Both the position numbers and the translations under genes were made by a program. Below are positions 11,593 to 53,974 of a stretch of DNA of 64,000 bases, one piece after another. The first letter of the stretch is position 1; every line of letters begins with the position of its first letter. The stretch spans positions 16,529-80,528 of the forward strand of contig CALSMU010000013.1 of assembly GCA_943787535.1 (NCBI GenBank), in the 5' to 3' direction. Under the pieces are notes generated by a model. That model did not search any database. It was not told where the DNA came from and saw only the letters and a program-made list of their open reading frames with translations. Source of the DNA: an uncultured Flavobacteriales bacterium. Lineage in GTDB: Bacteria; Bacteroidota; Bacteroidia; Flavobacteriales_D; Parvicellaceae.

Positions 11593-11593
11593 G

Positions 11594-15178: not shown

Positions 15179-15223
15179 ACTTATTACAAAAGAAAGGAAT
15201 TATTTAACTGACTTCAAGTGTTT

Positions 15224-15280
15224 TAAATTGTTTTGTAAACACTAAATTGTTTTGTATCTACTGAATTGTTTTGAACTTTG
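15224..15280. repeat. three tandem 19-nt units (TAAATTGTTTTGTAAACAC / TAAATTGTTTTGTATCTAC / TGAATTGTTTTGAACTTTG)
   Basis: Read directly in the 106-nt gap between the epimerase gene and Wzx copy 2. The first 14 nt of units 1 and 2 are identical. Confidence 0.85.
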
Positions 15281-15284
15281 AGTA

Positions 15285-16268: not shown

Positions 16269-16314
16269 TTTATGTTTTTTTCAAAAGTAATTAATTTATA
16301 AGTCAGGCAATCAA

Positions 16315-17214
16315 TTATATATAATTGTTCATCATGTTTACCTTTTCCCTAGGTACGAAAAAACAATTTCTTATTCCGTCATCCTCTTTCCGAATAATGG
16401 AGTCTAATTTGATCAATTTTTTTCCTTTGTGTCCAAAAAATAAATAGTCATATTTTGAGAATTCATTTTCTAGTTCTTTTTCAATGTCATTAAATAAAAT
16501 TTCACAAACAATAATAGGCTTATGGGTTTTAATCACAGACTCCATTCCTTTTATTATTTGTGGCTCGACACCTTCTGCATCAATTTTCACAAAATCAATT
16601 TGAAGGTTTTCAAGGTTGTTTTCTTTTAAACAATCTTCCAAAGGAGTTGAAGGAACCTTAATCTCTTTATATTCTTTGGGTTTGTTTACGGCACTTGCTG
16701 CACCTCCTAGATTATGTTTTAAAAAAGGGTATTTTTTATTCCTGACTTCATAAAACGAAATTTCTCCTTTTACATCTGAAATTGCCAATTGGAAAAAATC
16801 AATTTTAGATTCAAAACCGTTAACGGCAATATTGTTCCTAAAATAATGGGCGGAAGCATTTGTTGGGTCAAAAGCAACTATACGAATGTCTTTCGATTTT
16901 TTAGCAGCGATCATAGAGTACAGGCCTGCATTCGATCCAATGTCTAAAAAGCTTTTACAGTTACTAATGATGTCTTCAAAAATATCTACGTATTCATATC
17001 CATATATTCCTTTCCAGAATATGTTTTGGCCAACTGGGTCGGTTTGATTCGTGCAAAATTTAATTTTGTCTCCGTCTTTTAATTTTAATGATATAATTCC
17101 AGAAGGAGGTATTTTTATTTTAGGGAAGGCGAAACTAAAAGTTTTATTTAAAGACCTAAGTATTACATTAATGAATGGAGTATAGATTATTTTATAAATA
17201 ATTTTCATATTCAA
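16315..17214 (-). CDS. FkbM-family SAM-dependent methyltransferase
   Basis: SAM-binding block FLDIGSNAGLYS plus ..VAFDP and a C-terminal FVKIDAEG.E block typical of FkbM-type methyltransferases. Confidence 0.7.
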   Translation of the reverse strand: MNMKIIYKIIYTPFINVILRSLNKTFSFAFPKIKIPPSGIISLKLKDGDKIKFCTNQTDPVGQNIFWKGIYGYEYVDIFEDIISNCKSFLDIGSNAGLYSMIAAKKSKDIRIVAFDPTNASAHYFRNNIAVNGFESKIDFFQLAISDVKGEISFYEVRNKKYPFLKHNLGGAASAVNKPKEYKEIKVPSTPLEDCLKENNLENLQIDFVKIDAEGVEPQIIKGMESVIKTHKPIIVCEILFNDIEKELENEFSKYDYLFFGHKGKKLIKLDSIIRKEDDGIRNCFFVPREKVNMMNNYI

Positions 17215-17229
17215 TGACTTCTGGTTTCG

Positions 17230-17856
17230 TTACTCGAGATTTTGATAGAATGTCGAGAAATCTTTCTCGTAAATAATTTTAATCCTATTTTTTTGTTCTC
17301 TTGTTAAGGTGATTTCTTTCTTTTTAGTAGAGTTTAAATGAGGGACTTGTTTTATTTCTAAATTTAATTCTAGCGCTACCTTTTTAAAATCATCATTAAA
17401 AGATTCAAACCTTCCGAGAAAATCCAATTGCTCAACATCAATTAAAGAATATTGTGATCGAATGTGTTCGTCGCATTTCTCAATGTTTTGTTTTTCTACC
17501 CAACCAATAAAGTTGTTTATGTCTTTCATTTTTTCCAATTCGAGGTCTGGGAAATTGAAGTAATTACGTTCTACAACTTTGTCTTTCCAAGAACTTATGA
17601 AGCGATCATATGGGTTGCGAACAAACGCAAATTTGTAATATTTTTTATACAATCTAGGGTTGTAAGCTGTGGCGGAAGGATAAAGAAAGTCACTTCCGTT
17701 TTCTTTTTCAAAAAGCTTAAGAATGGAACGAGTACCTACTTTTGCTACTCGGTACCAAATTACTTTCTTCTTGAAATCATAGGCTATAAAGTACCGCTTA
17801 CTAATAAATAAAGGTAGTACGTATTTATTGAAGTAGAAGTGAATGTACTTTAACAT
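17230..17856 (-). CDS. PAPS-dependent (carbohydrate-type) sulfotransferase family protein
   Basis: 5'-PSB-like block VAKVGTRSIL and 3'-PB-like block FAFVRNPYDRFISSW. About 208 aa and cytoplasmic. Confidence 0.65.
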   Translation of the reverse strand: MLKYIHFYFNKYVLPLFISKRYFIAYDFKKKVIWYRVAKVGTRSILKLFEKENGSDFLYPSATAYNPRLYKKYYKFAFVRNPYDRFISSWKDKVVERNYFNFPDLELEKMKDINNFIGWVEKQNIEKCDEHIRSQYSLIDVEQLDFLGRFESFNDDFKKVALELNLEIKQVPHLNSTKKKEITLTREQKNRIKIIYEKDFSTFYQNLE

Positions 17857-24572: not shown

Positions 24573-25025
24573 TCACCTTATTTTACCTATAGTAACGGCA
24601 TCATTTCTACTGGAAATGGTGTCGTTTAGTTTTAGAAATAATGTAGATCGAAGTTCGAGAGGTCTTATCTTTTTTGGGAATTTTCTAATTAATAAGGTCA
24701 GTTGCAATAGTGCGTGTTCGCAAAGCGTATCATTTTTAATACACTGCTCATGGAAAATTTCAGCAAGCAGCATTCTACTGTTATAATCATTAGGGTCCAT
24801 TTTAAGCAGTTTGTCTAATAGTTTTTCTGCATTATCTATTTCTCCTTTCTTATAAAGTTGTGCTGCTTCCATAATTGGAGTAGGATTTCTAATTATACTT
24901 TGCTGGGTGTATTCTTCCCTGTCTTGTTTTAAATCCATGGTAAGTGAATACATTATCCATAAAATACCAAATAGAAATATTGAAGATTTTAAAATCGAAA
25001 AAATGATATGCGGTTTTTTCTTCAA
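24573..25025 (-). CDS. membrane-anchored TPR-like protein
   Basis: One N-terminal TM helix followed by TPR-like helices (AAQLYKKGEIDNAEKLLDKLLKMDPNDYNS). It is the last gene of the sigma/anti-sigma operon. Confidence 0.6.
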   Translation of the reverse strand: MKKKPHIIFSILKSSIFLFGILWIMYSLTMDLKQDREEYTQQSIIRNPTPIMEAAQLYKKGEIDNAEKLLDKLLKMDPNDYNSRMLLAEIFHEQCIKNDTLCEHALLQLTLLIRKFPKKIRPLELRSTLFLKLNDTISSRNDAVTIGKIR

Positions 25026-25026: not shown

Positions 25027-26205
25027 CTAAATATTATTTAACATTTCACTTGCTTTTTTTGCATAAAACCCATTTTCAGTAGCTATTTCATTCAATATCG
25101 TTATACACTTACTTATTTTACCTAATTCATGCAAGCTCATCGCTTTGTACCATTTTGCTTCTTCATAAAAAGTATTGAAATCATGGTTTAATACTCTGTC
25201 AAAATGCTGAATGGCCTTCTTTTGTTTATTGATATTGAAATAACAAAGAGCCATATAAAAGTGCGCATTCACATCATTTGAATAGTGATTCAAAATGGTT
25301 CTGTAATCTTTTAATGCATCTTTAAATTTATTCCTTCTGAATTTTGCTTGTGTCTCCTCTAAAAAATCCACATAAGTGATTTTTTGAGTATAGCTATTTA
25401 CAGCTAATTCACTTGCACCATTATCGCTTTTATTTTCTTTGTCAGCGGTTGTGCCGGTTAGTTCAAAGTTTGGAACAGTGATTTCCTTAGTGTATATGTT
25501 AGTGTAATCAACAACCAAAAGTCTTGAAAGAAACAAAGTCCCTACGTTACTGCTAATAACATTTGTGATAGTCACTTCGGTAACTTCTTTTTTATCACTT
25601 GATTTTGCGTTAATTATTTGTTTCTCTTCATTGATTAGTAGGATTGCGCTATCAATGTTATCTATTTCATTAAGAGAACTATCTATAGCCATGATTAGGG
25701 GAGCGTTAAAAATAATTCTATCAGAAGTTAGTTGTTTACTTTCCTCCAATGGAGTTGCATCTTCTATTTCTTTATCGTTCAATTCTTTAATTGGTTGGAT
25801 AGTAATATATGTGGAACTTGAATCAGTAATTGTCTGCATAGTTAATTTACTTTCATCAAATTTAATCTCGTCTAAATCGATTTGATCTAGAAAATGGTAG
25901 CCAATAAAATAGAGCCCTATAGCAACACCAATTATAAGAATAAATGAAAATTCGAATCTCCAAAATTTACTAGCTACTTTTCGAGGAAGGTTTCCATGGA
26001 ATTGATCTTCTAATTGTTTAAACCCTTCCATGGAGCCAGGTGTAGATTCAAACCCTTCCATGGCGTCACTGTTGAAATCATTGCTGGCAATTTTTTGCTC
26101 AAGCTGATATTTTTCAGCTTGTGACATATCACCTTTTAAATAAGCGTCCATTTCCTCTTTGGTAAGAGGAGTGCTGCTTTCGAATATGTTCTTTTTCCTG
26201 CTCAT
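25027..26205 (-). CDS. putative anti-sigma factor: single-TM protein with C-terminal TPR domain
   Basis: The start is 5 nt after the sigma gene stop. The N-terminal cytoplasmic segment (MDAYLKGDMSQAEKYQLEQKI) resembles Bacteroidota anti-sigma N-termini. It has a TM helix (FSFILIIGVAIGLYFIGY) and C-terminal TPR repeats. Confidence 0.55.
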   Translation of the reverse strand: MSRKKNIFESSTPLTKEEMDAYLKGDMSQAEKYQLEQKIASNDFNSDAMEGFESTPGSMEGFKQLEDQFHGNLPRKVASKFWRFEFSFILIIGVAIGLYFIGYHFLDQIDLDEIKFDESKLTMQTITDSSSTYITIQPIKELNDKEIEDATPLEESKQLTSDRIIFNAPLIMAIDSSLNEIDNIDSAILLINEEKQIINAKSSDKKEVTEVTITNVISSNVGTLFLSRLLVVDYTNIYTKEITVPNFELTGTTADKENKSDNGASELAVNSYTQKITYVDFLEETQAKFRRNKFKDALKDYRTILNHYSNDVNAHFYMALCYFNINKQKKAIQHFDRVLNHDFNTFYEEAKWYKAMSLHELGKISKCITILNEIATENGFYAKKASEMLNNI

Positions 26206-26210: not shown

Positions 26211-26780
26211 TCAGCTATAATTTTCAGTTAGAATTATTTTTAAATTCCGTTTCCCATTTTGAATATAACTTTTCACTTTTTTTGTTTCGTAGCCTGTTAG
26301 GTTTGCAACTTCATCGTATGTTTTTTCTTTTAAATAGAATAAATCAATACACTGTTGTTGCTCGTTTTTTAGTTTTTTTATTGCCTCTTCAAGGTTTTTT
26401 AATTTACTTTCTTTAATGAATATATCCTCCGGATTGTAGTTGTCTTTGAGCTTGTATTCCAATTCAGAAATATTTTCAATTCCTTCAGGTTTTTTCTTCC
26501 GTAATTGCATTAGGCAATGGTTTGTAGAAACCCTATACAACCAAGATTTAAAATTCTTTACATCCATTCTCAGTAAATCAACCATTACCTTTTCAAAAAT
26601 TACAGATGTAGCATCTTGACTTTCTACTACATTGTTTAGATACTTTAAACATACACCATATACAAGGTGTCCGTATCTTTCAAATAAAATACCAATGTAT
26701 TTATTGTTTTTACTTTTCTTGTACTGAATGAGTAGTTCCGTATCTGGAAATTGTTTGATATTTTTTTTTGTTCTTCTCAA
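26211..26780 (-). CDS. ECF-type RNA polymerase sigma-70 factor
   Basis: Region 2 (FE..Y..LVYGVCLKYL......QD......FEK) and region 4 (Q..C..LFYL.E.TY.EVA..TG....VKSYIQNGKRNLK). Confidence 0.9.
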   Translation of the reverse strand: MRRTKKNIKQFPDTELLIQYKKSKNNKYIGILFERYGHLVYGVCLKYLNNVVESQDATSVIFEKVMVDLLRMDVKNFKSWLYRVSTNHCLMQLRKKKPEGIENISELEYKLKDNYNPEDIFIKESKLKNLEEAIKKLKNEQQQCIDLFYLKEKTYDEVANLTGYETKKVKSYIQNGKRNLKIILTENYS

Positions 26781-26904: not shown

Positions 26905-27660
26905 TTAGTCAACTACTTTATTATGACTTTCTTTATATGCCTTCATTTCTTGTTCTCCTTTCCAGATTGAATAGTAATCAAAGTAACTTTTTGTTTCTAC
27001 CATTATAACTCCTCCCAGGACATCGCCATATTTAGCAGGAACCCCACCTGTATATACGCGCATAGCTTGAATTGAAGCACTAGGCAAAGTTGGTCTTCCT
27101 CCGGTTATTTTTACTCCATCCACAATATACATTACATCACCATTTCGTGAGCCTCTAAAGTATATTTCATTGCCATCTTCGGAAACTTTTATCTCTGAAC
27201 TCATTGTTCTTGCTATCTGATTTATGTTGGTTCTAACTGGAAGAACTGCAATTTCTTTAGCTTTAATTGTAACAATTTTAGTGTCTTCTGGATCTATTAA
27301 TTTTTCTCTCCAAGTATGGATTTCGATAACTCCTAAAAGTCCTTTTGTCATAACCAGATCGTTGACAAATGTGATTTTGTCTGCGTTAATTTGTATTCCA
27401 TTCTGTTTGAGCGTGTCAATTCCAGATGCTATCGTTAAATTATAGGTTCCCGGATTTAAGGGCTTAATTGTAAACTTTCCGTCAAAATCGGTTATTGTTT
27501 GTACTGTCTTTCCAAGTACATCTAGTGTTACCATGGCTCCTGGTATAGGATCGTTTGTCTCGTTTTCTACTATTTTCCCTTTTAGTGTTCCAAAGTTTGC
27601 TTGGGCGAACAAAGTGGAAGTTCCAAATATTAGAAGCGCTGCACAAATTAAATTTTTCAT
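26905..27660 (-). CDS. secreted CarboxypepD_reg-like domain + TonB-receptor Plug domain protein with no beta-barrel
   Basis: Signal peptide, then GTLKGKIVE.ETNDPIPGAMVTL....K...TDFDGKFTI..L.PGTY.L (carboxypeptidase-regulatory-like fold), then plug motifs (IYFRGSRNGDVMYIVDGVKI, VYTGGVPAKYGDVLGGVIMVETKS). The ORF ends about 30 aa later. Confidence 0.75.
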   Translation of the reverse strand: MKNLICAALLIFGTSTLFAQANFGTLKGKIVENETNDPIPGAMVTLDVLGKTVQTITDFDGKFTIKPLNPGTYNLTIASGIDTLKQNGIQINADKITFVNDLVMTKGLLGVIEIHTWREKLIDPEDTKIVTIKAKEIAVLPVRTNINQIARTMSSEIKVSEDGNEIYFRGSRNGDVMYIVDGVKITGGRPTLPSASIQAMRVYTGGVPAKYGDVLGGVIMVETKSYFDYYSIWKGEQEMKAYKESHNKVVD

Positions 27661-27737: not shown

Positions 27738-27784
27738 ATAAAAAAGCCGACTCCTTCCGATAGTATCGGAACGGAATCGGCTTT
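27738..27784 (-). terminator. rho-independent terminator closing the receptor operon
   Basis: Compound hairpin AAAGCCGA...TCGGCTTT enclosing TTCCGATA/TATCGGAA, followed on the minus strand by TTTTTT. It lies about 20 nt after the stop at 27805. Confidence 0.7.
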
Positions 27785-27804: not shown

Positions 27805-29199
27805 TTATTTCTTTATTAAAATTTGCGTAGAAAAAGCGTTATTATTTGAAATTGAAACGATATAAGTTCCACTTTCAAGAGAAGAAACATCAATCATTTC
27901 AAAAGCATTGTTCGTTGTAGTGTTGATTACTACTTTACCTTCAATGCTTAAAAGAGTAACAGCACTATTAGCAGGAGCTTCAATGTTTACAACCTCGCTT
28001 GCAGGATTAGGGTAAACAGAAGTTTGAAGCGTTTCATTTTCATCAACACCAACCGAAGTAATAATATCAGCAAGTGTTCTAGGTTGAAGTAAAAATGAGC
28101 CAAATGCATAATCAATAATTCCTGTTACATCATAAGGTCCGCCTACAACAGCATTATAAACAGCTCCTAATAAGAAATCATCAACGATACAATCACCAGA
28201 ACCATCATTAATTGTCCATTCTCCAAAACCATTTGTAGCAACTGTGCAGTTAGTTACAGGTATGTTTACTAAAACACCTTCGTACATTTCAGCTAATGCA
28301 GCTCCAGTTGTAACTGTTGTTTTAACAACAGTATTTCCACTTGAGGCATTATTAAAACCTGTTATGTTTGTCAATTCAGTCAAACCGCTAAATTCTGTCA
28401 CTACACAAGTGAAAGTAACAGAATCGCCTATTGCAACCGTATTGTTTAAGTCATAAACGTAAATCCCTGTCCATGGTCCTGATCCATTTTGAATAAAGTA
28501 ACTTCCATTTGATTTAATTCCAGTTACAACACCACCGGCCATAACTGTATTTCCGTTTTCTGGAGAATCTCCGTTACCAGCTACCGTATATTGGATGTCA
28601 TAGATTGATTTGGAAGGTGGGATAACAGCCCCTGTTTCGTTAACCAATATATCATCAACTTCCCAAGTACTTCCATCTGCAGATGTTCCCACGTATTTAA
28701 ATGCAATATAAACACCACTGGCAGCATAAGCAGATAAATTTACATTTCCTGAAGATACCCATTCAAACCAAGTTCCAGAGTTTAAAGGCATTGTCGGACT
28801 CAACGCACTCCAGGTGCCTTGCGAAGAAGGGTCACTAGTTCCGTCATAGTCATTAGAAATTAACACTTCTAAAGCGTCACCATCATATGCGACAGCACTT
28901 TTGAAAGACAATAATGGAGTTGTAGCTGCACTTAAGTCTATTGAAGGAGAAATTAGCCAGCTTTCAACAGGCTCATTTGAAGAGCCATTCCAGTTTTTCA
29001 TCACTCCGTAAGCAGTTGGTGCGCCACCTGCTGTACTTGTTGCCCATGTTAAAGAGGTAGTAGTTGCAGGAGTTGGTTCATTTATTGTCCATCCACCTGA
29101 CGTAGCACTGTTGTCATCAAAATCTTTTGTTAAATATGTCTGTGCATTAACGCTAGAGATAGCTAATGCAGATAAAGCTAAAATGTAAAGTTTTTTCAT
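27805..29199 (-). CDS. T9SS (type A CTD) secreted protein: N-terminal choice-of-anchor-J-like domain + OB-like beta domain
   Basis: Signal peptide. The block ...ESWLISPSIDLS....LSFKSA.AYDGDALEVLISNDYDG...W.. is choice-of-anchor-J-like. The middle IYDIQYT....GNTVMAGGVVTGI....YFIQ.....TGIYVYD....IGDSVTFTCVVTEFSGLTEL recalls the OB-like module of ExeM/NucH-type extracellular nucleases. C-terminal VYPNPAS..VNIE........LLSIEGKV..........D.S.L.SGTYIV.I is a type A sorting domain. Confidence 0.8.
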   Translation of the reverse strand: MKKLYILALSALAISSVNAQTYLTKDFDDNSATSGGWTINEPTPATTTSLTWATSTAGGAPTAYGVMKNWNGSSNEPVESWLISPSIDLSAATTPLLSFKSAVAYDGDALEVLISNDYDGTSDPSSQGTWSALSPTMPLNSGTWFEWVSSGNVNLSAYAASGVYIAFKYVGTSADGSTWEVDDILVNETGAVIPPSKSIYDIQYTVAGNGDSPENGNTVMAGGVVTGIKSNGSYFIQNGSGPWTGIYVYDLNNTVAIGDSVTFTCVVTEFSGLTELTNITGFNNASSGNTVVKTTVTTGAALAEMYEGVLVNIPVTNCTVATNGFGEWTINDGSGDCIVDDFLLGAVYNAVVGGPYDVTGIIDYAFGSFLLQPRTLADIITSVGVDENETLQTSVYPNPASEVVNIEAPANSAVTLLSIEGKVVINTTTNNAFEMIDVSSLESGTYIVSISNNNAFSTQILIKK

Positions 29200-29224
29200 G
29201 TTATTAATTTTTGTGTAAGGTTTA

Positions 29225-30496
29225 TTAAAGTTCTTCTATTTTTATATCATCGATTTCCCAAGTACTTCCATCGGAAGCAGAACCAATGTATTTAAAGGCA
29301 ACGTAAACACCATTTTGAGTAAAGGAGGATAAATTTAATGGTCCTGAATTTACCCATTCGAAAAATCCTGAGGACCATAATGCTCCTCCCGTAAAAGATG
29401 TCCAAGTTGCTAGGTTCGGATCTCCATTACCAGAATAATCTGCAGAAATAAGGACTTCCAAAGCATTTCCAGTATAACTATATGCGTTGTTAAAGCTTAA
29501 TGCTGGAGTAGTTGCTCCGCTTAAATCAATAGATGGAGAAATAAGCCAGGACTCATTAATCTCGTTTGTCGAACCATTGTAGTTACTCATGTTTCCATAG
29601 GATTGACCGCCAAATTCACCAACAGTCCAATTTAGCGTGCCAATAACCAATTGAGTAGTCCAACCTCCAGAAGTTACACTCCCATCATTAAAGTTTTTTT
29701 CTAATATTGGGGGAATTCCACTACTGGTGCATCTGGTGTTTGTGAAATCAGCACTTTCAGGATCTCTAACATAGATTTGTAAATCTAAGGTTGTGAAGAG
29801 TGCGGGATTTGTTTCCGTAGTGTATATGCCAACAATACCCGTTAAAGATCCATTTAAAGAAGGAATTATATCATCAGCGAAATTTGCATATCCGCTGGTT
29901 CTAACAATTAAGGAATTTAAATTACAATTTAAAATATTGTGGTTTACATCACTTTGTGTTACGGAATTTGACCAGGTTGCCCCCATAGATGCCTGCTCAA
30001 ATTCAACATCTTCAAATGTTACTAGCAATCCTCTATCTGCATCTGGATTAATTGTGGTAATTGTTCTTAAAGCAGGAGCTACATGTTTTCCAGTGGCTTG
30101 TTTAATAATATTGTTATCTACATCAACCCCATCTAACTGAAACATTCCTCTATATATGTCAATAGTAGTGCCTTTTAAATAGATCCTGATAGAATCTCCC
30201 TCGTATAATCCTCCGGAGTTGACCAGTCTTAATTGAATAGCATGATTTCCTGCTTGAACATAAACTTCTTTATAGAAATTTCCAGAAGATTCATCCGTAG
30301 TAGCGGTAGCATAAACAGAGTAATCTTCAGTAAAAGTATATGCTGCTCCAACGGAGTCTCTAAATGCTTTCAATTCTTCAATTGTCAGAATGTTGCCAAC
30401 CGGTAAATTCTGCACAGGTGGAGAATCATATTCTTTTCTGCAAGAAAATGTGCTTATAAGAATTCCGATTGCTAATAGTATATTTAAATTTTTCAT
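29225..30496 (-). CDS. surface lipoprotein: N-terminal DUF5689-like OB/beta domain + C-terminal choice-of-anchor-J-like domain
   Basis: Lipobox LISTFSC. LTIEELKA......I..D..V.A..T.DESSGNFYKEVYVQ.G..AI.LRL.....LYEGD.I.I.L.G is as I recall for DUF5689. The C-terminal 150 aa is a close paralogue of the N-terminal domain of the 27805 gene. Confidence 0.75.
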   Translation of the reverse strand: MKNLNILLAIGILISTFSCRKEYDSPPVQNLPVGNILTIEELKAFRDSVGAAYTFTEDYSVYATATTDESSGNFYKEVYVQAGNHAIQLRLVNSGGLYEGDSIRIYLKGTTIDIYRGMFQLDGVDVDNNIIKQATGKHVAPALRTITTINPDADRGLLVTFEDVEFEQASMGATWSNSVTQSDVNHNILNCNLNSLIVRTSGYANFADDIIPSLNGSLTGIVGIYTTETNPALFTTLDLQIYVRDPESADFTNTRCTSSGIPPILEKNFNDGSVTSGGWTTQLVIGTLNWTVGEFGGQSYGNMSNYNGSTNEINESWLISPSIDLSGATTPALSFNNAYSYTGNALEVLISADYSGNGDPNLATWTSFTGGALWSSGFFEWVNSGPLNLSSFTQNGVYVAFKYIGSASDGSTWEIDDIKIEEL

Positions 30497-30522
30497 AATC
30501 TATTTGGATATCTATTCTTTTA

Positions 30523-33045
30523 TTAAAATAAGTAACTGACCGAAGCGAAATAAGTTAACCCATACATATAACCATATTTAGGTGGAAACCTGTCAATTTG
30601 AGTTACATCATATCGCAATTGCTCAAAACCACCTGTTTTGAATGATGTATTGTTTAATACATTGTTTATGTTAATGTTTAAACGAACAAATGAGTTGTTT
30701 TTTAACTTCCAAGATTTGCCTCCGTAAAGGTTCAATGAGTAGCCATTTTCTAATTTTTCTTGGTCAATTATTTCTGTAATCTGAGGATCTGTATCTACGA
30801 AGTTTGCAAGCGCTTCTTCTGTTCTTCTGTCTGGATTGGGGTCTAGGTATATATTGGCAAAGTAATTAAAATTAGTGCCAGCATACCAATATTTTCGAGC
30901 ATTGTACTTAAATCCAATAGATGCAGCAGTTTGCGGCATTCCTCCAATTCTATAGTTTTTAAAATAAATTGTTCTGTTTTCAGCAACAATTTCTTCCGAG
31001 TTGTCTCGAGTAATTGTAGCATTTGGCCTCGAATTATAAAGCGACATGCTATGTGTTCCCGCAGCTTGAATGACAAATGCTCCTAAAGTTTTTTCTACTC
31101 CTAACTCAATACCAGTGAATAATTGGTCAACATCTGTCATCATATAGTTTACGAATGTTCTAAATTCATCATGATAAAAGCTACGTGCCCATACTTGATC
31201 GTCTATTTGCGTGTAGTAACCTGTTAATCTCACCTTTAATTTAGGGTATCTAATGACATAACTTAAATCACCGGATAGAATTTTGGTGCTTTCTAAACTA
31301 TCAATAACTTGATCTCTAGTTCTAGGGGATATAAATGCATTTCGAGAAAATGGCGCTCTTGTTGAATAAGTTAAGTTTCCTGTTACAAGGTGTCTACCGG
31401 TAATTTTATATACAGCTCCAGCTTTTATTCCGTAATTAAAAAAGTTATTTTTTTCAGATTCTCCAATAGATTCTTCAGGGAATCTACCATTTTGAACATT
31501 ACCTGTTCTCCAGAAAGAAGTGTAAGAAGATGTTAGACCGGCATATGCATCAACCTTTTTTGATTTAAAATCTACTTGTCCGAAAATCTCAGCTTTGTTA
31601 TTGTGAATGTTATAGTCGTATCCAAATTTATCGCCAGCTCTGATAAGTTTATTTGTAGTCGATAAATCGTTTTGCGCAACACTATCATTTGCAAAATCTC
31701 TTTCAGCAAATTGATCTACATCGACCCAGAAATCACCTCCTAATAAATCTGCCATTAATCTATAGTTATGGCTTGTATAGGTATGTGCGTTAATACCTGC
31801 AGTTAAGTAAATTTTTTCATTGAGCTGATTGTTATATACTGAATTGACTCCAAATCTTCTTGGGTCAACTCTATATTCTTCAACAATATACTTAGAACGA
31901 TTTCCGGTAATAATGTTTCCTTCACCATTTGCATTTTCTACAGCATGTAAATTTTTAGAATTCGCAAAATACATTTGGTCCCAATTTAATTGCGATGTGC
32001 TTGTATTGTTTTGCCAAGCTGAAGTTGCTGCATTTGCCTCATCAAATTCTGCTCTGTTTGTAAAATAACTTGGTAGGTTTTTGTAATAATCGGGTCTTGG
32101 GTCGGCAGCATCGTACCAGTTTAAGTTGGTACTGCTCGTTCTTCCGAAAACTGCATAAACAGATGTAGTCAATTTTGATTTTTCATCTATTTGTAAATAA
32201 TCTGTTACTACAACATAGGGTTTGTGATTGTCTCGCATCCGTGCGTTTCTTTTAATACTGTCACCTTCAGATGTAGTTTGGTATCCCCAATATGGATTGT
32301 AGTAATTAGAACCTGTCAAATCCAAAGCTTCTTGCTGCGCAATCCCTCTTCTTCCTTGAACTGCTGGTGCTCCAAATCCCGCTAAGTTAATAGTGTGATT
32401 ATCGTTAATTCTTCTTTCTATAGCAGCAAAATAACTTCCTCCACTATAAGATGTTCCTTCAACATAACCTTCATTGGCCCATCTGGAAGACGCAGAGACT
32501 GAAAAAGCCCAATCTCCTTTCCAACCAGAATTATATGAATACATTGCTCTGTTGTTATAGCTTCTGTTGGTAGCTGCGTAAGAAGCTCTGTGCCCTTTGC
32601 TTTTTTCTGAGGCCCTTAAACTAATTGAAGAGTAACCTCCAATTCCGCCATAAGTGGTGTGTGAAGATGCAATTCCCATTTTAGCTTCTGGGTATCTTGT
32701 AACATCATTCAATCCACCCCAGTAACTCCATATAGCCCATCCACTCTCGGGATCATTGCCCGGTATTCCGCCAATTAAAATGTTGGTATTTTCTGAACTA
32801 TACCCCCTTAGTCTAAATCTTGCAGCGCTAAAGTTAAATCCGGCTATACCCGCATAAACGTCTCTTGAAGATTGCAGCAAACCACTAATATTTTGCGATT
32901 GACCCTCGGATTGAATCAAATCTGCTCCTGAAGTAATAAGCGGCATATTTGTAATTGAGGAATCCTGATTCGTAGAATCTGATTGCGCACAAATAGTAAA
33001 TACACAAAAAGATAGGATGAAAATGGCTAGGTTTCTAAGCTTCAT
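30523..33045 (-). CDS. TonB-dependent outer-membrane receptor (non-SusC type, no CarboxypepD_reg extension)
   Basis: Signal peptide, plug motifs (FRLRGYSSENTNILIGGIPGND, YGGIGGYSSISLRA), a long beta-barrel and a terminal aromatic residue (...SYLF). Confidence 0.9.
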   Translation of the reverse strand: MKLRNLAIFILSFCVFTICAQSDSTNQDSSITNMPLITSGADLIQSEGQSQNISGLLQSSRDVYAGIAGFNFSAARFRLRGYSSENTNILIGGIPGNDPESGWAIWSYWGGLNDVTRYPEAKMGIASSHTTYGGIGGYSSISLRASEKSKGHRASYAATNRSYNNRAMYSYNSGWKGDWAFSVSASSRWANEGYVEGTSYSGGSYFAAIERRINDNHTINLAGFGAPAVQGRRGIAQQEALDLTGSNYYNPYWGYQTTSEGDSIKRNARMRDNHKPYVVVTDYLQIDEKSKLTTSVYAVFGRTSSTNLNWYDAADPRPDYYKNLPSYFTNRAEFDEANAATSAWQNNTSTSQLNWDQMYFANSKNLHAVENANGEGNIITGNRSKYIVEEYRVDPRRFGVNSVYNNQLNEKIYLTAGINAHTYTSHNYRLMADLLGGDFWVDVDQFAERDFANDSVAQNDLSTTNKLIRAGDKFGYDYNIHNNKAEIFGQVDFKSKKVDAYAGLTSSYTSFWRTGNVQNGRFPEESIGESEKNNFFNYGIKAGAVYKITGRHLVTGNLTYSTRAPFSRNAFISPRTRDQVIDSLESTKILSGDLSYVIRYPKLKVRLTGYYTQIDDQVWARSFYHDEFRTFVNYMMTDVDQLFTGIELGVEKTLGAFVIQAAGTHSMSLYNSRPNATITRDNSEEIVAENRTIYFKNYRIGGMPQTAASIGFKYNARKYWYAGTNFNYFANIYLDPNPDRRTEEALANFVDTDPQITEIIDQEKLENGYSLNLYGGKSWKLKNNSFVRLNININNVLNNTSFKTGGFEQLRYDVTQIDRFPPKYGYMYGLTYFASVSYLF

Positions 33046-33245
33046 AGTTATTTAAGAATTGCAACTGAATCTATTGTGCCAATGGAAGTAAATATATGTT
33101 AACCGTTTTGAATTTCTAAAGATGATATGCGAGAAATACAGTTAAACTTTATAATCTTTTACTCTGTTGGTTTTTAGTTATCTATACAAACATGGTTTCA
33201 GGTGCTTTGTCACTTTCAAGGAGAACATGTTGTACTTTATGTATG

Positions 33246-33253
33246 CAAATGTA
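33246..33253 (-). promoter_or_regulatory. candidate -7 box (minus strand TACATTTG) for the receptor operon
   Basis: This is the only TAnnTTTG match I found on the minus strand of the 412-nt gap. It would give a leader of roughly 190 nt. Confidence 0.25.
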
Positions 33254-33433
33254 AAATATTTTTAATAAAGTCCCACTTGGATAGGTGTGTTGTGAATAAC
33301 TTAATAAATTATAAACATTTTTTTTTGGTTAAATCGTTATTTGTTCTCGCTTAAGGGGTGTTTGTTTAAACTCTATTTGGTTGAAAAGTTCACTAAATTA
33401 TTGGTTGTTTTTTGGGAAGTTTAGTTTTGGCTA

Positions 33434-33441
33434 TATATTTG
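33434..33441 (+). promoter_or_regulatory. candidate -7 box TATATTTG
   Basis: It fits TAnnTTTG and lies upstream of the EEP gene (GTG 33458 / ATG 33497). Confidence 0.4.
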
Positions 33442-33496
33442 CTACCTGGGTTTAATAGTGATTTCATCATTAAAACCAATTAAAATTTCAATTCCT

Positions 33497-34573
33497 ATGT
33501 CGCTACTTAGATATACATTTTCAACGCTTTTATTGCTATTTTGTTTTACAACTCTAAAAGCACAAATACTTAATCCGGACAGGAGTTACGAGGTTGCTTG
33601 TGTTGGTTTTTATAACCTTGAGAATTTATTTGATACTATAGTTGACCCTGATACAAATAAAATTCTCCAGGAAGATTTTACGCCAAAAAGCAGTAAGCAG
33701 TGGAATTCAAAAAAGTACTTCAGTAAGCTAAATAATATGGCGGATGTAATTAGTAAAATTGGTGTTTCAAAATCTGTTCCTGATGGGGCAGCTGTTCTAG
33801 GCGTCTGTGAAATAGAAAATAAATCGGTATTAGATGATTTAGTAGCGCACGAAAAACTTAAAAACAAAAATTATCAGATTGTTCATTATGATTCTCCAGA
33901 TAAAAGGGGAATTGATGTGGGATTTTTATACCAGCCAAAATATTTTAAAGTAACTTCTAGTAAAACTTATACCCTAACTCTGCCTGATAGAGATGATTGG
34001 TTTACAAGAGATCAGCTATTGGTTTCTGGAGAATTAAATGGAGAAAAAATGCATTTTATTGTTTGTCACTGGCCTTCCAGAAGAGGAGGGCAAAAAGCGA
34101 GCTCACATAAACGTATTGCAGCTGGTGAACTGGCTAAGAGTATTGTTGATTCGTTAACAAAAGAAAATCCTTTGGCAAAGGTTTTAGTAATGGGAGATTT
34201 AAATGATGATCCGGTTGATCCAAGTGTTAGAGAGGCAATGAACTCAGTTGGAAAGATTAAAAAAATGAAGGAAGGAGATATGTTTAATCCTATGGAATCA
34301 CTTTTTAAATTAGGAATAGGCACCTTAGGTTACAATGATGCGTGGAATTTATTTGATCAAATGGTTATAACATCTGGGTTGATATCGAAGGACAATAGTT
34401 TTAACACTTATTCTTATTTTACCGCTAAAGTGTTTAATAATTCATTCTTGAAAAATAGTTCAGGAAGATTTGAAGGATTTCCATTTAGAACTTATTCTTA
34501 TGGGAAATTTATCAATGGCTACAGCGATCATTTTCCTGTATATTTATACTTGGTTAAACAGAAAAGTAGATAA
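33497..34573 (+). CDS. secreted endonuclease/exonuclease/phosphatase (EEP) fold protein, no T9SS domain
   Basis: Signal peptide MSLLRYTFSTLLLLFCFTTLKAQ (the GTG at 33458 is an alternative start). EEP motifs: GFYNLENLFD, VCEIEN, VCHWPSRRGG, MGDLNDDP, SDHFPVY. Confidence 0.85.
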   Translation: MSLLRYTFSTLLLLFCFTTLKAQILNPDRSYEVACVGFYNLENLFDTIVDPDTNKILQEDFTPKSSKQWNSKKYFSKLNNMADVISKIGVSKSVPDGAAVLGVCEIENKSVLDDLVAHEKLKNKNYQIVHYDSPDKRGIDVGFLYQPKYFKVTSSKTYTLTLPDRDDWFTRDQLLVSGELNGEKMHFIVCHWPSRRGGQKASSHKRIAAGELAKSIVDSLTKENPLAKVLVMGDLNDDPVDPSVREAMNSVGKIKKMKEGDMFNPMESLFKLGIGTLGYNDAWNLFDQMVITSGLISKDNSFNTYSYFTAKVFNNSFLKNSSGRFEGFPFRTYSYGKFINGYSDHFPVYLYLVKQKSR

Positions 34574-34596
34574 TTAATACGTCATTTTTACATTTT

Positions 34597-35829
34597 ATGA
34601 GGAATTTAAAATTATTCATTGTTGTTGCGTTCGTATTTCTTTGCAATACTGGAAGAGCCCAGGAAACACTAAAAGTTATGTATTATAACTTGTTAAACTT
34701 CCCATCAACATCTCCAGAAAGAGCAGATACATTAAAAAAGATTGTGCAACACGTCTTACCCGATATGTTTTTGGTTAATGAATTAGATAATCAATTTGGG
34801 GCAACATTAATATTAAATAATGCGCTTAATCAAAATGGGATAACGCATTATCAGCAAGCTACATTTGTAGATGGTCCTGATACTGATAATATGTTGTTTT
34901 TTAATTCTAATAAATTGGGTTTGATTTCTCAAAATGAAATCCAAACTTCGTTAAGGGATATAAATGAATACATTTTGTATTACAAAGCTCCGGATTTAGC
35001 TTCTACAATGGATACGGCCTTTTTCTTCATGTATTCCTGTCATTTAAAAGCTGGAAGTACGGATCCTAATCCAGATTATCGATTGGCCGAAGCGCAAGTT
35101 TTTAAAAATTATTTGTCTGGAAAAACAGGACTAAAAAATGTAATGTTTGGTGGGGACTTTAATTTTTACGGAAGTTCAGTCTCTAGTGAGCCTGCGCATA
35201 ATTGGGTTTTAAATGGAGGAACTATTCCGTTGTTTGATCCAATTGATATGACCGGTGAGTGGCATGCGAATTCATTCTATGCTAGTATTCATACGCAAAG
35301 TACAAGAACTGTAAGTTTTGACGGTGGAGCGACTGGCGGATTAGACGACCGCTTTGATTTTGTTTTTATAAGTAATGATTTACAAACTGGAGCAAATAAA
35401 GCAAAATATGTCGATAATTCTTATACATCCATCGGCAATGATGGAGCTCATTACAATACATCATTGGTAAACCCTTTATCCAATGGGGCTGTGCCAGATG
35501 ATGTTGCAAATGCGTTGTATCAAATGAGCGATCATTTGCCAGTTTACCTAGAGATACAAGTAGGAGGGGATGTTGGTATTACCGAGAATGACTATATTAG
35601 TAGTTTTAGTTTCAATAGTACTTCCAGAGAGTTGGAAGTTTTTCTAAAAAACAGTGAGAATCAAATTTCACTATCGGTTTACGATATTTCAGGTAAAAGA
35701 ATTCTAGATCAAATGCATTCCGGAATTGATTTAATAAAAACATCCTTTCCCTACCTAAGAAGTGGAGTGTATATTATAAATCTTCAAAAAAGAGGAATGA
35801 ATACTTCTTTGAAAGTTATTGTTCTTTAA
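34597..35829 (+). CDS. EEP-fold protein with type A T9SS C-terminal sorting domain
   Basis: Signal peptide. EEP motifs: MYYNLLNF, LVNELD, SCHLKAG, GGDFNF, LDDRFDFV, SDHLPVY. The C-terminal 80 aa (LSVYDISGKRIL.....SGVYIINL) is CTD-like. Confidence 0.85.
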   Translation: MRNLKLFIVVAFVFLCNTGRAQETLKVMYYNLLNFPSTSPERADTLKKIVQHVLPDMFLVNELDNQFGATLILNNALNQNGITHYQQATFVDGPDTDNMLFFNSNKLGLISQNEIQTSLRDINEYILYYKAPDLASTMDTAFFFMYSCHLKAGSTDPNPDYRLAEAQVFKNYLSGKTGLKNVMFGGDFNFYGSSVSSEPAHNWVLNGGTIPLFDPIDMTGEWHANSFYASIHTQSTRTVSFDGGATGGLDDRFDFVFISNDLQTGANKAKYVDNSYTSIGNDGAHYNTSLVNPLSNGAVPDDVANALYQMSDHLPVYLEIQVGGDVGITENDYISSFSFNSTSRELEVFLKNSENQISLSVYDISGKRILDQMHSGIDLIKTSFPYLRSGVYIINLQKRGMNTSLKVIVL

Positions 35830-53616: not shown

Positions 53617-53970
53617 ATGAAAACGGTATCCGTTATATTTTTACTCTTGATATCCTTTAAGTCATTCTCTCAAAATGATTTAGGTAAATCAGTTCAGATG
53701 AAAAAAGTGTCTTTCACAAATGAAGGAACTACCAAAGTTCAGGCGCACAATAAAGGGCAATATGTGTCTGGTGGTAACAAAAAAATAATAGAGGCTAAAA
53801 CTGTAGCCTATTATGATAGCTACATTTCTTCTGTAAAAACAAAAATGGAACATATTAAATCTGATAAAGTTGAGAATAGGAGAGCTATTGAAAGTGGATG
53901 GTATGATGAAATGAAAAAGAACATATCAAATGCTGAAATTGAAAAACAAAAATTACTAATTGTTAAATAG
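53617..53970 (+). CDS. small secreted hypothetical protein
   Basis: Signal peptide MKTVSVIFLLLISFKSFSQ. Lys-rich and helical. The stop is 5 nt before the adhesin ATG. Confidence 0.6.
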   Translation: MKTVSVIFLLLISFKSFSQNDLGKSVQMKKVSFTNEGTTKVQAHNKGQYVSGGNKKIIEAKTVAYYDSYISSVKTKMEHIKSDKVENRRAIESGWYDEMKKNISNAEIEKQKLLIVK

Positions 53971-53974
53971 CCAA

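What the first reader, a model, noticed from the sequence alone, without database searches (positions are those of the whole stretch)
27805..35829. SusD-less receptor locus with OB-like surface proteins and two EEP phosphoesterases: candidate extracellular nucleic-acid (or phosphoester) capture-and-import system
Seen: the minus-strand operon contains a TonB-dependent receptor (840 aa), a lipoprotein (lipobox STFSC) and a secreted protein with a type A T9SS sorting domain. It is closed by a strong terminator. Both accessory proteins pair a choice-of-anchor-J-like domain with an OB-like beta module (GNFYKEVYVQ...LYEGDSIRIYLKG; IYDIQYT...GVVTGI...IGDSVTFTCVVTEFSGLTEL). From memory these modules resemble DUF5689 and the DNA-binding module of ExeM/NucH-type extracellular nucleases. 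Divergent from the operon, across a 412-nt gap, are two EEP-fold enzymes with intact catalytic blocks. One has only a signal peptide, so is probably periplasmic. The other has a T9SS sorting domain, so is surface or extracellular. No SusD-like gene is present.
Known: the EEP fold includes DNase I/ExoIII-type nucleases as well as phosphatases and sphingomyelinases. TonB receptors import scarce substrates. T9SS sorting domains direct proteins to the cell surface.
Inference: together these form a complete path of surface capture by OB-like binders, extracellular cleavage, TonB-powered import and periplasmic trimming. The substrate would be extracellular DNA/RNA or another phosphodiester polymer, used as a source of phosphorus or nucleotides. 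I am not aware of an experimentally characterised system with this architecture.
Basis: partly seen in the sequence, partly recalled or inferred. Interest (0 to 1): 0.7.

Follow-up and report, generated by a model that had tools for sequence, protein, structure and literature searches.

The report
TonB-dependent DNA-uptake locus, Flavobacteriales version
This is a real and conserved gene cluster for catching, cutting and importing DNA from outside the cell, but the same kind of system was already described experimentally in Riemerella anatipestifer (2021) and Bacteroides thetaiotaomicron (2025), so this is a new member of a known kind.

Summary
Every part of the observation checks out: five genes at the stated coordinates, the lipobox, two T9SS type-A sorting domains, DUF5689, choice-of-anchor-J domains, two EEP enzymes with intact catalytic blocks, a strong terminator and no SusD.

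These are the R. anatipestifer natural-transformation genes RA0C_RS04915/04920 (PMC8459023) and the B. thetaiotaomicron ddbABCDEF DNA-utilisation locus (PMC12478041).

- **Orthology of the core.** The receptor is 35-41% identical over more than 800 aa to the receptors next to DUF5689 genes in Bacteroides finegoldii and Aureibacter. The periplasmic EEP (PF19580) is 47-50% identical to their neighbouring EEPs.
- **Fold.** The DUF5689 part models confidently as a tandem OB fold. It matches only nucleic-acid-binding OB/HIN proteins, including p202 (4JBM).
- **Conservation.** The core is conserved across 80 species-level Flavobacteriales genomes.
- **What differs here.** The accessory binder and surface nuclease carry T9SS sorting domains (predicted surface or extracellular) instead of being lipoproteins. 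The receptor lacks the N-terminal carboxypeptidase-regulatory-like domain.

Whether the imported DNA feeds the cell or transforms it cannot be told from sequence. The novelty claim is outdated. Interest is modest.

The parts
27740..27784 (-). Intrinsic terminator that closes the receptor operon: a 19-bp G+C-rich stem and a U-run, 20 nt after the stop codon of the T9SS binder gene.
   Evidence: Read directly. RNA fold: hairpin at nt 27-68 of the folded piece, z-score -7.6, 0 of 200 shuffles fold as well. Not listed by the consensus scan.
27805..29199 (-). T9SS-sorted accessory surface protein, 464 aa. Signal peptide (cleavage after ...VNAQ), choice-of-anchor J beta-sandwich (aa 21-190), ExeM/NucH-N-terminal-like double OB-like module (about aa 196-382), type A T9SS sorting domain (aa 395-464). 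Proposed extra DNA-binding protein, analogous to SusE/F or DdbE.
   Evidence: NF038128 E 8e-24, NF033681 partial E 1.8e-8, TIGR04183 and PF18962. The choice-of-anchor J domain is homologous to that of the lipoprotein (hhalign E 5e-63). The middle region aligns to the DUF5689 tandem OB region over 183 columns (prob 72%, E 3e-5). Present in 65 of 71 related loci. No structure model was obtained (job failed).
29225..30496 (-). DUF5689 surface lipoprotein, 423 aa (DdbD / RA0C_RS04920 type). Lipobox Cys19, tandem OB fold (aa 28-262), C-terminal choice-of-anchor J / DUF5017 beta-sandwich (aa 263-423). Proposed substrate-binding partner of the receptor, taking the place of SusD.
   Evidence: PF18942 E 2.4e-36 and PF16409 36 bits. 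NF052645 'M949_1556 family lipoprotein' of R. anatipestifer E 5e-40, and NF038128. AF2 model of aa 28-262: pLDDT 91.4, pTM 0.87. The Foldseek PDB list is made up mostly of nucleic-acid-binding OB proteins: Teb1, POT1, RPA70, p204/MNDA/p202 HIN, including 4jbm_B. The C-terminal domain resembles CBM, MAM and gingipain adhesin sandwiches.
30523..33045 (-). Divergent TonB-dependent outer-membrane transporter, 840 aa (DdbC / RA0C_RS04915 type). Signal peptide, plug, large C-terminal region ending in Phe. It has no N-terminal carboxypeptidase-regulatory-like domain.
   Evidence: Plug PF07715 in 14 of 16 homologues. [quoted passage not shown] No Pfam barrel family, no NCBIfam family including SusC/RagA, and no solved TonB-dependent transporter matched by profile.
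33176..33253 (-). Putative promoter -7 box (TACATTTG, 33253-33246) of the receptor operon, followed by a conserved leader hairpin (33246-33176): a 13-bp stem and a 23-nt conserved loop. A candidate cis-regulatory element restricted to this narrow lineage.
   Evidence: The box matches the Bacteroidota TAnnTTTG consensus (established knowledge) and is conserved in L009 as TAACTTTG. There are 6 compensatory pairs between the window and L009. The covariance model finds it only in L001, L009 and three near-identical metagenome contigs, always between the EEP and receptor genes. No Rfam family matches.
33434..33441 (+). Putative -7 promoter box (TATATTTG) of the divergent nuclease pair.
   Evidence: Read directly. 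The block GCAAATATAT is conserved in L001 and L009. Function is inferred from the Bacteroidota promoter consensus.
33458..34573 (+). Periplasmic EEP-fold enzyme of family PF19580 (maximal ORF 371 aa; likely start at ATG 33497, 358 aa). It has a type-I signal peptide only and is basic (pI 8.7). Proposed DdbB-like periplasmic nuclease.
   Evidence: PF19580 E 4e-124. 50% identity to the EEP encoded next to DUF5689 in B. finegoldii and 47% to the one in Aureibacter, both also PF19580. Divergent and directly upstream of the receptor gene in 48 loci. Catalytic residues invariant. pI. Nuclease activity is inferred, not shown.
34597..35829 (+). T9SS-sorted EEP-fold enzyme, 410 aa. Proposed cell-surface or extracellular nuclease, analogous to DdbA/DdbF or SusG.
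   Evidence: PF03372 30.9 bits and TIGR04183 28.8 bits. The profile of 16 homologues gives only a weak N-terminal match to DNase gamma (7kiu_A, E 5e-4). Catalytic residues invariant. Adjacent in 28 of 80 loci. Substrate is not shown.

Best explanation
The locus is a Flavobacteriales member of the Ddb / Riemerella-type TonB-dependent outer-membrane DNA capture-and-uptake system.

Proposed working:
1. Exogenous DNA is held at the cell surface by the DUF5689 lipoprotein (tandem OB fold plus a choice-of-anchor-J sandwich). This protein sits on the divergent TonB-dependent transporter in the place SusD occupies in glycan systems.
2. A T9SS-sorted paralogous binder helps hold the DNA.
3. The T9SS-sorted EEP enzyme cuts it.
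4. Fragments pass through the transporter, powered by TonB.
5. The signal-peptide-only PF19580 EEP enzyme processes them in the periplasm.

Shown here: gene content, domain and fold identities, orthology of the three core genes with Bacteroides and Cytophagales loci, and strong conservation of the arrangement.

Taken from the literature on homologues: requirement for DNA depletion and for transformation, and nuclease activity of the Ddb enzymes.

Inferred: DNA binding by the OB proteins, nuclease activity of these two EEPs, the receptor-lipoprotein complex, and the fate of the DNA. Because a surface nuclease and a periplasmic nuclease are both present, I favour degrade-and-import (nucleotide, nucleobase or phosphorus salvage) over transformation, roughly 2:1. 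The two fates are not exclusive.
For: - Domain calls.
- The DUF5689 N-terminal model has pLDDT 91 and matches mostly tandem-OB nucleic-acid binders, including the p202 HIN structure (4JBM) used for DdbD in PMC12478041.
- Receptor: 41% identity over 831 aa and 35% over 818 aa to receptors encoded next to DUF5689 in Aureibacter and B. finegoldii. EEP: 47-50% identity to their PF19580 neighbours.
- The R. anatipestifer M949_1556-family lipoprotein model hits the window lipoprotein at E 5e-40. It covers the Aureibacter DUF5689 protein full length.
- Conservation in 80 species-level genomes: receptor 77 of 80, T9SS binder 65 of 71, PF19580 EEP 48 of 55, and 48 of these EEPs divergent directly upstream of the receptor.
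- Literature: deleting ddbABCDEF abolishes DNA depletion, and DdbA, B and F are nucleases. RA0C_RS04915/04920 are essential for natural transformation. A tonBA mutation inhibits transformation without reducing iron uptake. BT3560-3563 includes the extracellular DNase BT3563.
- No SusD, CAZyme or glycan genes in the window.
Against: - No direct comparison with DdbA-F or RA0C_RS04915/04920 sequences was possible. Orthology is shown through B. finegoldii and Aureibacter proxies and shared Pfam/NCBIfam models.
- The receptor lacks the N-terminal carboxypeptidase-regulatory-like domain present in the Riemerella, Bacteroides and Aureibacter homologues.
- Its barrel matches no Pfam barrel family and no solved TonB-dependent transporter.
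- Both putative DNA binders are very acidic (pI 4.1-4.8, net charge -27 and -31). This is unusual for DNA-binding surfaces, and DNA binding by any DUF5689 protein has not been shown biochemically.
- The choice-of-anchor-J domain resembles carbohydrate-binding and adhesin sandwiches.
- The T9SS EEP has no specific nuclease-family assignment and is linked in only 28 of 80 loci.
- Foldseek TM-scores for the OB module are modest (0.3-0.44).
Confidence: 0.78

Rival explanations
1. The same outer-membrane machine is used mainly for natural transformation, as in R. anatipestifer. Long double-stranded DNA is bound and pulled into the periplasm. The periplasmic EEP converts or trims it, and ComEC, ComF and DprA encoded elsewhere in the genome take one strand into the cytoplasm.
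For: The only genetic data from a member of the Flavobacteriales are for transformation (RA0C_RS04915/04920 essential). The Riemerella locus also carries a ddbB-like nuclease neighbour, so a periplasmic nuclease does not argue against transformation. In two thirds of related loci no surface nuclease gene is adjacent (28 of 80 have one).
Against: No ComEC, ComF, DprA, ComEA-like or RecA gene lies in the 64-kb window or within 10 kb of the 80 related loci, whereas in Riemerella comEC lies a few genes away (locus tags). This window does have a T9SS-sorted EEP enzyme next to the periplasmic one, which favours degradation. Competence has not been reported for these uncultured lineages in the papers found.
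Confidence: 0.25
2. The substrate is not nucleic acid but another anionic or phosphoester-containing polymer or lipid, such as teichoic-acid-like polymers, phospholipids or sulfated glycans. The EEP enzymes would act as phosphodiesterases or phosphatases, and the beta-sandwich domains as carbohydrate-binding modules.
For: The EEP fold also covers phosphatases and sphingomyelinases (established knowledge). The choice-of-anchor-J domain's best structural match is a carbohydrate-binding domain of a putative chondroitinase (8jiy, E 1e-9). The binders are acidic. The T9SS EEP has no nuclease-specific family hit.
Against: The DUF5689 module is a tandem OB fold whose structural matches are mostly DNA/RNA binders, not carbohydrate-binding modules. 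Homologous loci are genetically tied to DNA in two organisms. Across the phylum the DUF5689-receptor pair recurs with nucleases of different families, for example Endonuclease I PF04231 in Aureibacter. No glycoside hydrolase, lyase, sulfatase or SusD gene is linked.
Confidence: 0.06
3. The main physiological role is remodelling of extracellular DNA in the cell's own matrix or biofilm, as shown for BT3563 in bile-dependent biofilm formation. Import would be secondary.
For: BT3560-3563, the same locus type, was first found through a biofilm phenotype caused by the extracellular DNase.
Against: A dedicated TonB-dependent transporter, a surface binder and a periplasmic nuclease are conserved much more tightly than the surface nuclease. 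This points to uptake. These are mostly planktonic aquatic lineages known only from metagenomes.
Confidence: 0.08

Closest known systems
ddbABCDEF DNA-utilisation locus of Bacteroides thetaiotaomicron (BT3558-3563 region; Sharan et al. 2025, PMC12478041; Bechon et al. 2022, PMC8851478)
   Same: A divergent TonB-dependent transporter (DdbC) is encoded next to a DUF5689 lipoprotein (DdbD) whose model resembles the p202 HIN domain. There is a signal-peptide-only periplasmic nuclease (DdbB), surface nucleases, an extra surface protein of unknown function (DdbE), a PUL-like logic and no SusD. The window's receptor, DUF5689 protein and PF19580 EEP are clear homologues of the triad in B. finegoldii (35%, 29% and 50% identity).
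   Different: Here the accessory binder and the surface nuclease carry T9SS type A sorting domains instead of lipoprotein signals. The receptor lacks the N-terminal carboxypeptidase-regulatory-like domain. The DUF5689 protein carries a C-terminal choice-of-anchor-J domain. The nuclease pair is divergently transcribed. Direct identity to DdbA-F could not be measured. No phenotype is known.
Riemerella anatipestifer natural-transformation outer-membrane pair RA0C_RS04915 / RA0C_RS04920 (Huang et al. 2021, PMC8459023)
   Same: Same order (Flavobacteriales). RA0C_RS04920 has the same architecture as the window lipoprotein (DUF5689 + DUF5017 / choice-of-anchor J). It is in an operon with an outer-membrane transporter, and there is a neighbouring ddbB-like nuclease. 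The R. anatipestifer M949_1556-family lipoprotein model matches the window protein at E 5e-40.
   Different: [quoted passage not shown] In Riemerella comEC and recA lie close by, but not here. The papers describe no T9SS-sorted binder or nuclease. The demonstrated function is transformation, which is unknown here. The window protein scores far below the subfamily cut-off (138 vs 475 bits).
SusC/SusD-type polysaccharide utilisation loci
   Same: The overall logic: surface binders, a surface hydrolase, a TonB-dependent transporter with a lipoprotein partner, and a periplasmic hydrolase.
   Different: No SusD gene. The receptor is not SusC/RagA family (no TIGR04056 hit). There are no CAZymes. The binding partner is an OB-fold protein rather than a TPR-like SusD.
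ExeM/NucH extracellular endonucleases (NF033681)
   Same: The OB-like module of the T9SS binder matches the N-terminal part of the model (E 1.8e-8), and the PF19580 enzyme weakly matches its EEP part (E 1.9e-6).
   Different: In ExeM/NucH the two parts are in one polypeptide. Here they are split between different proteins in different compartments. Scores (34 and 27 bits) are far below the 300-bit cut-off.

Membership tests
Ddb / Riemerella-type TonB-dependent DNA-uptake locus | DdbC-type divergent TonB-dependent transporter gene | tested here: met
   41% identity over 831 aa and 35% over 818 aa to the transporters encoded next to DUF5689 genes in Aureibacter tunicatorum and Bacteroides finegoldii. 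Plug domain in 14 of 16 homologues. This was tested through proxies, because the sequences of DdbC and RA0C_RS04915 themselves were not obtainable.
Ddb / Riemerella-type TonB-dependent DNA-uptake locus | Adjacent DUF5689 lipoprotein (DdbD / RA0C_RS04920) in the same operon | tested here: met
   PF18942 E 2.4e-36 covering positions 2-206 of 217, plus DUF5017 and choice-of-anchor J. Lipobox Cys19 is invariant. There is a 26-nt gap to the receptor gene. The pair is adjacent in 77 of 80 genomes.
Ddb / Riemerella-type TonB-dependent DNA-uptake locus | DUF5689 fold resembles HIN/OB DNA-binding domains (p202, PDB 4JBM) | tested here: met
   Model of aa 28-262: pLDDT 91.4. Foldseek finds p202 HIN1 4l5r_C (TM 0.41), 4jbm_B (prob 0.95, TM 0.38), p204, MNDA, RPA70, POT1 and Teb1. 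No carbohydrate-binding modules are among the 50 listed matches.
Ddb / Riemerella-type TonB-dependent DNA-uptake locus | Neighbouring periplasmic (type-I signal peptide) nuclease, DdbB type | tested here: inconclusive
   A PF19580 EEP with a type-I signal peptide is adjacent and is 47-50% identical to the EEPs in the B. finegoldii and Aureibacter loci. Whether DdbB itself is PF19580 could not be checked. Nuclease activity is not testable here.
Ddb / Riemerella-type TonB-dependent DNA-uptake locus | Surface-exposed nuclease(s) encoded in the locus (DdbA, DdbF) | tested here: inconclusive
   An EEP enzyme with a T9SS sorting domain is present. It shows no detectable similarity to the other Aureibacter nucleases and only a weak DNase-gamma match. 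It is linked in 28 of 80 loci.
Ddb / Riemerella-type TonB-dependent DNA-uptake locus | N-terminal carboxypeptidase-regulatory-like domain on the transporter (as annotated for RA0C_RS04915) | tested here: not met
   No PF13620 or PF13715 hit in the window protein or 15 homologues. The alignments start at residue 112 (Aureibacter) and 127 (B. finegoldii) of the longer homologues, which do carry the domain. The ORF is already maximal and starts with a signal peptide.
Ddb / Riemerella-type TonB-dependent DNA-uptake locus | Predicted transporter-DUF5689 complex; DNA depletion or transformation phenotype | not testable with these tools
SusC/SusD polysaccharide utilisation locus | SusD-like gene next to a SusC/RagA-family transporter, with CAZymes | tested here: not met
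   No SusD or CAZyme family among the 51 ORFs scanned. No TIGR04056 hit for the receptor.
ExeM/NucH family extracellular endonuclease (NF033681) | Full-length match above 300 bits, with the OB module and EEP domain in one protein | tested here: not met
   Partial matches only: 33.7 bits for the binder (profile positions 34-117) and 27.1 bits for the PF19580 enzyme (profile positions 286-445).
T9SS type A cargo | C-terminal type A sorting domain (TIGR04183 / PF18962) after a type-I signal peptide | tested here: met
   48.4 bits (binder) and 28.8 bits (EEP) against a cut-off of 23. Both have N-terminal signal peptides ending in AQ. Another T9SS cargo lies in the window at 53960-58399.

The most novel reading that the evidence does not exclude
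In these abundant, mostly uncultured aquatic Flavobacteriales the system may be a distinct T9SS-dependent 'DNA utilisome'. Its features would be a transporter without the N-terminal extension domain, a lipoprotein tandem-OB lid, and a T9SS-anchored domain-swapped paralogue of that lid. In the window's own lineage there is also a separate 251-aa 'extension domain + plug' protein and a structured leader hairpin. Such a machine could import long DNA and make these lineages naturally competent. That would be an unrecognised route of gene flow, and of dissolved-DNA turnover, in marine and fresh waters.
Probability: 0.12. Interest if true: 0.6.

Novelty: new member of a known kind. Interest (0 to 1): 0.3.

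Why it matters
Dissolved DNA is a large pool of organic phosphorus and nitrogen in water and sediments. It is also the raw material of natural transformation. This work shows that the recently described Bacteroidota outer-membrane DNA-uptake module is conserved, with a T9SS-based accessory set, in at least 80 species-level genomes of Parvicellaceae, Vicingaceae, Crocinitomicaceae, Cryomorphaceae and related Flavobacteriales. That extends the system from a bird pathogen and gut Bacteroides to environmental lineages. It also names cultured relatives in which it can be tested. The finding does not open a new question. It gives a clear annotation for genes now called 'DUF5689', 'choice-of-anchor J' and 'Plug domain-containing protein'. 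It also highlights one open point for the whole family: nobody has shown that these very acidic OB proteins bind DNA.

Tried and rejected
- **Sequence searches of the PDB.** The two EEPs, the binder, and profiles of the lipoprotein and receptor gave nothing useful. Only T9SS sorting domains and a weak DNase-gamma stretch matched.
- **Foldseek with the full-length lipoprotein model.** The C-terminal sandwich domain dominated the results. I therefore re-modelled aa 28-262 alone.
- **Structure prediction of the T9SS binder.** A local profile-profile alignment was used instead.
- **Obtaining Riemerella or B. thetaiotaomicron sequences.** The three protein searches and the one genome scan returned only closer relatives. 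Annotated proxies came from a tblastn of the plasmid collection.
- **Other conserved system genes within 10 kb of 80 loci.** I looked for ComEC, phosphatases and further nucleases. Only housekeeping synteny appeared (PdxJ, hydrolase, CBS, NAD kinase, UppS, BamA). The seven loci without the PF19580 gene have unrelated neighbours.
- **Known RNA families in the 412-nt gap.** None found. The leader as a whole does not fold unusually well (z = +0.8).
- **The leader hairpin as a general feature.** The covariance model and a metagenome pattern scan found it only in the window's own narrow lineage.
- **The 251-aa carboxypeptidase-regulatory-like + Plug ORF as part of the operon.** Rejected. It lies after the terminator, and it travels with an ECF sigma factor in only 5 of 80 loci.
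- **The terminator-like site at 35620-35639.** It lies inside the coding sequence and is taken as chance.

Full report

On the minus strand, separated by gaps of 26 and 25 nt, lie three genes:
- An 840-aa outer-membrane protein (30523-33045).
- A 423-aa lipoprotein (29225-30496, lipobox ...STFSC19).
- A 464-aa protein with a type A T9SS sorting domain (27805-29199).

A 19-bp hairpin with a U-run at 27784-27740 ends this unit (z = -7.6). The simple terminator scan had missed it.

Divergent from this operon are two EEP genes:
- A PF19580 enzyme (33458-34573). The likely start is the ATG at 33497, which gives a plain type-I signal peptide.
- After 23 nt, a PF03372 enzyme with a T9SS sorting domain (34597-35829).

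- DUF5689 (PF18942, E 2.4e-36) with DUF5017 / choice-of-anchor J in the lipoprotein.
- Choice-of-anchor J (E 8e-24) in the T9SS protein, plus a partial match to the N-terminal part of the ExeM/NucH model (E 1.8e-8).

The catalytic residues of both EEPs are invariant among homologues. No SusD, SusC/RagA signature or CAZyme occurs in the window. The window is a chromosomal piece of an uncultured Flavobacteriales bacterium. The exact lipoprotein is on 18 ENA metagenome contigs, and the nearest genome is a Flavobacteriales MAG (96% identity).

**It is not chance.** A scan of one genome per species returned 80 loci with a homologue of the lipoprotein at 38-96% identity. They come from Parvicellaceae, Vicingaceae, Crocinitomicaceae, Cryomorphaceae and unclassified Flavobacteriales, including the cultured Putridiphycobacter roseus.
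- The receptor gene is directly upstream in 77 of 80. The other three loci are cut by contig ends.
- The T9SS binder follows in 65 of 71 loci with enough downstream sequence.
- The PF19580 gene is present in 48 of 55 loci with enough flank. In 48 loci it lies divergently and directly upstream of the receptor gene.
- The T9SS EEP is adjacent in 28 loci.
- The DUF5689 gene is tandemly duplicated in 13 loci.

Other conserved neighbours are housekeeping genes, and no competence or glycan genes are linked. A profile of the lipoprotein finds 9,736 cluster representatives at E <= 1e-3 among 1.84 billion proteins, so the family is large.

**What the parts are.**
- *DUF5689 module.* The full-length lipoprotein model (pLDDT 86) gave only beta-sandwich matches (carbohydrate-binding modules, MAM, gingipain adhesin domains, ephrin-receptor ligand-binding domains). 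These belong to the C-terminal choice-of-anchor-J domain. Modelling residues 28-262 alone gave pLDDT 91.4 and pTM 0.87. The Foldseek PDB list for this model is made up mostly of tandem-OB nucleic-acid binders: Teb1, POT1, RPA70 DBD-A/B, aspartyl- and lysyl-tRNA synthetase anticodon domains, and the HIN domains of p204, MNDA and p202, including 4JBM. TM-scores are modest (0.3-0.44).
- *T9SS binder.* It shares the choice-of-anchor-J domain with the lipoprotein (hhalign E 5e-63). Its middle region aligns over 183 columns with the DUF5689 tandem OB region (prob 72%, E 3e-5). The two proteins are thus domain-swapped relatives: OB-OB-CAJ versus CAJ-OB-OB-sorting domain. One homologue of the T9SS binder carries a precomputed hit to the OB-fold family PF01336 (P0198).
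- *Receptor.* It is very divergent. Only the Plug domain is detected (14 of 16 homologues). No Pfam barrel family, NCBIfam model or solved TonB-dependent transporter matches.

**Link to known systems.** A text search for DUF5689 led to two papers.
- Huang et al. [quoted passage not shown] RA0C_RS04915 is an outer-membrane protein with a carboxypeptidase-regulatory-like domain. RA0C_RS04920 is a choice-of-anchor J protein with DUF5689 and DUF5017. The authors proposed that the two bind DNA and carry it across the outer membrane. A companion paper found that a tonBA mutation inhibits transformation without reducing iron uptake.
- Sharan et al. 2025 (PMC12478041) described ddbABCDEF in B. thetaiotaomicron: three nucleases with activity shown in vitro, the transporter DdbC, the DUF5689 protein DdbD and the surface protein DdbE. 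Deletion abolished DNA depletion and the production of uracil and xanthine from DNA. DdbC and DdbD are homologous to the Riemerella pair, and a ddbB-like nuclease neighbours the Riemerella genes. DdbD's model resembles p202.
- Bechon et al. 2022 had found the same locus (BT3560-3563) through the extracellular DNase BT3563.

**Membership.** I could not retrieve the Riemerella or B. thetaiotaomicron sequences. A tblastn of the plasmid collection gave two annotated relatives instead.
- B. finegoldii: TonB-dependent receptor, DUF5689, EEP.
- Aureibacter tunicatorum pAT2: carboxypeptidase regulatory-like domain protein, two DUF5689 proteins, Endonuclease I, two EEPs.

| Window protein | B. finegoldii | Aureibacter |
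|---|---|---|
| Receptor | 35% over 818 aa | 41% over 831 aa |
| PF19580 enzyme | 50% | 47% |
| Lipoprotein | 29% | 28% |

The neighbouring EEPs in both loci are also PF19580. The NCBIfam model named after the R. anatipestifer lipoprotein M949_1556 hits the window lipoprotein (E 5e-40) and covers the Aureibacter DUF5689 protein end to end. This ties the family to Riemerella. The three-gene core of receptor, DUF5689 lipoprotein and PF19580 enzyme is therefore shared across Flavobacteriales, Bacteroidales and Cytophagales.

One annotated feature is not met. The window receptor and its close homologues lack the roughly 80-residue carboxypeptidase-regulatory-like N-terminal domain.

**How it most likely works.**
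- *Shown:* the parts, their sorting signals, folds and orthology.
- *From the literature on homologues:* DNA is the substrate, and TonB dependence is plausible.
- *Inferred:* the steps below.

1. The lipoprotein acts as the substrate-binding lid of the receptor.
2. The T9SS-sorted paralogue adds binding capacity.
3. The T9SS EEP fragments DNA outside the cell.
4. Fragments are imported.
5. The basic (pI 8.7) PF19580 enzyme processes them in the periplasm.

The fate of the DNA is open. In B. thetaiotaomicron DNA was a poor sole nutrient. In Riemerella the pair serves transformation. I lean towards salvage here for two reasons. Both a surface and a periplasmic EEP enzyme are present, and no competence genes are nearby, unlike in Riemerella, where comEC is a few genes away.

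A real caveat applies to the whole family. The putative DNA binders are very acidic (pI 4.1-4.8, net charge -27 and -31; likewise in the Bacteroides and Aureibacter proteins). No DUF5689 protein has been shown to bind DNA.

**Novelty and score.** The new points are modest:
- The accessory binder and nuclease are sorted by T9SS rather than by lipidation. The described Bacteroides locus uses lipoprotein signals for these proteins.
- The receptor has no N-terminal extension domain.
- The module is widespread in uncultured aquatic Flavobacteriales.

I rate this a new member of a known kind, interest 0.3.

Noticed in passing
window 26905-27660 (-), with 26211-26780 (-), 25027-26205 (-), 24573-25025 (-): A stand-alone 251-aa protein has a signal peptide, a carboxypeptidase-regulatory-like domain (E 3e-13) and a TonB-receptor Plug domain (E 6e-7), but no barrel. 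It lies just after the operon terminator and is followed by an ECF sigma factor and two TPR proteins. Same-length homologues lie upstream of an ECF sigma factor gene in only 5 of 80 related loci. In one of them (L001) the contig ends before a sigma gene could be seen. Its N-terminus resembles the extension domain that the window's own DNA-uptake receptor lacks (34% identity to the B. finegoldii receptor N-terminus). Role unknown.
   Followed up: partly
window 33176-33253 (-): Just downstream of a putative Bacteroidota -7 box (TACATTTG), the receptor operon's roughly 195-nt leader starts with a hairpin: a 13-bp stem and a 23-nt conserved loop (UCUCCUUGAAAGUGAC...CACCU). Six stem pairs change on both sides between the window and locus L009 while pairing is kept. 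The element is found only in this narrow lineage (L001, L009 and three near-identical metagenome contigs), always between the EEP and receptor genes. No Rfam family matches.
   Followed up: partly
window 27805-30496 (-); L081, L082: The putative DNA-binding surface proteins are strongly acidic (pI 4.1-4.8, net charge -27 and -31), as are the DUF5689 proteins of B. finegoldii and Aureibacter. The periplasmic PF19580 enzyme is basic (pI 8.7). This is odd for DNA binders and unexplained.
   Followed up: no
loci L029, L047, L052, L059, L060, L061, L064, L068, L069, L070, L072, L073, L078; L082 10363-12264: The DUF5689 lipoprotein gene is tandemly duplicated in 13 of 80 related loci. In Aureibacter a 633-aa protein carries two DUF5689 repeats, and many database relatives have 2-7 repeats.
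   Followed up: no
window 53960-58399 (+): A 1479-aa protein with SprB repeats, a PKD domain and a CHU_C type B T9SS sorting domain lies in a stretch of higher G+C (0.39-0.41 against about 0.33). It is probably a gliding or adhesin cargo. It shows that the organism encodes further predicted T9SS cargo.
   Followed up: no
window 2567-17856: A large surface-polysaccharide biosynthesis cluster: sugar transferase, MBOAT, DegT aminotransferase, two flippases, a Wzy-like polymerase, GT2 and GT4 glycosyltransferases, an epimerase, an FkbM methyltransferase and a sulfotransferase. It is unrelated to the finding.
   Followed up: no
window 49997-50836 (-): The DUF1015 ORF matches only positions 132-324 of the 325-position family model. 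It may be N-terminally truncated, or its start may be miscalled.
   Followed up: no
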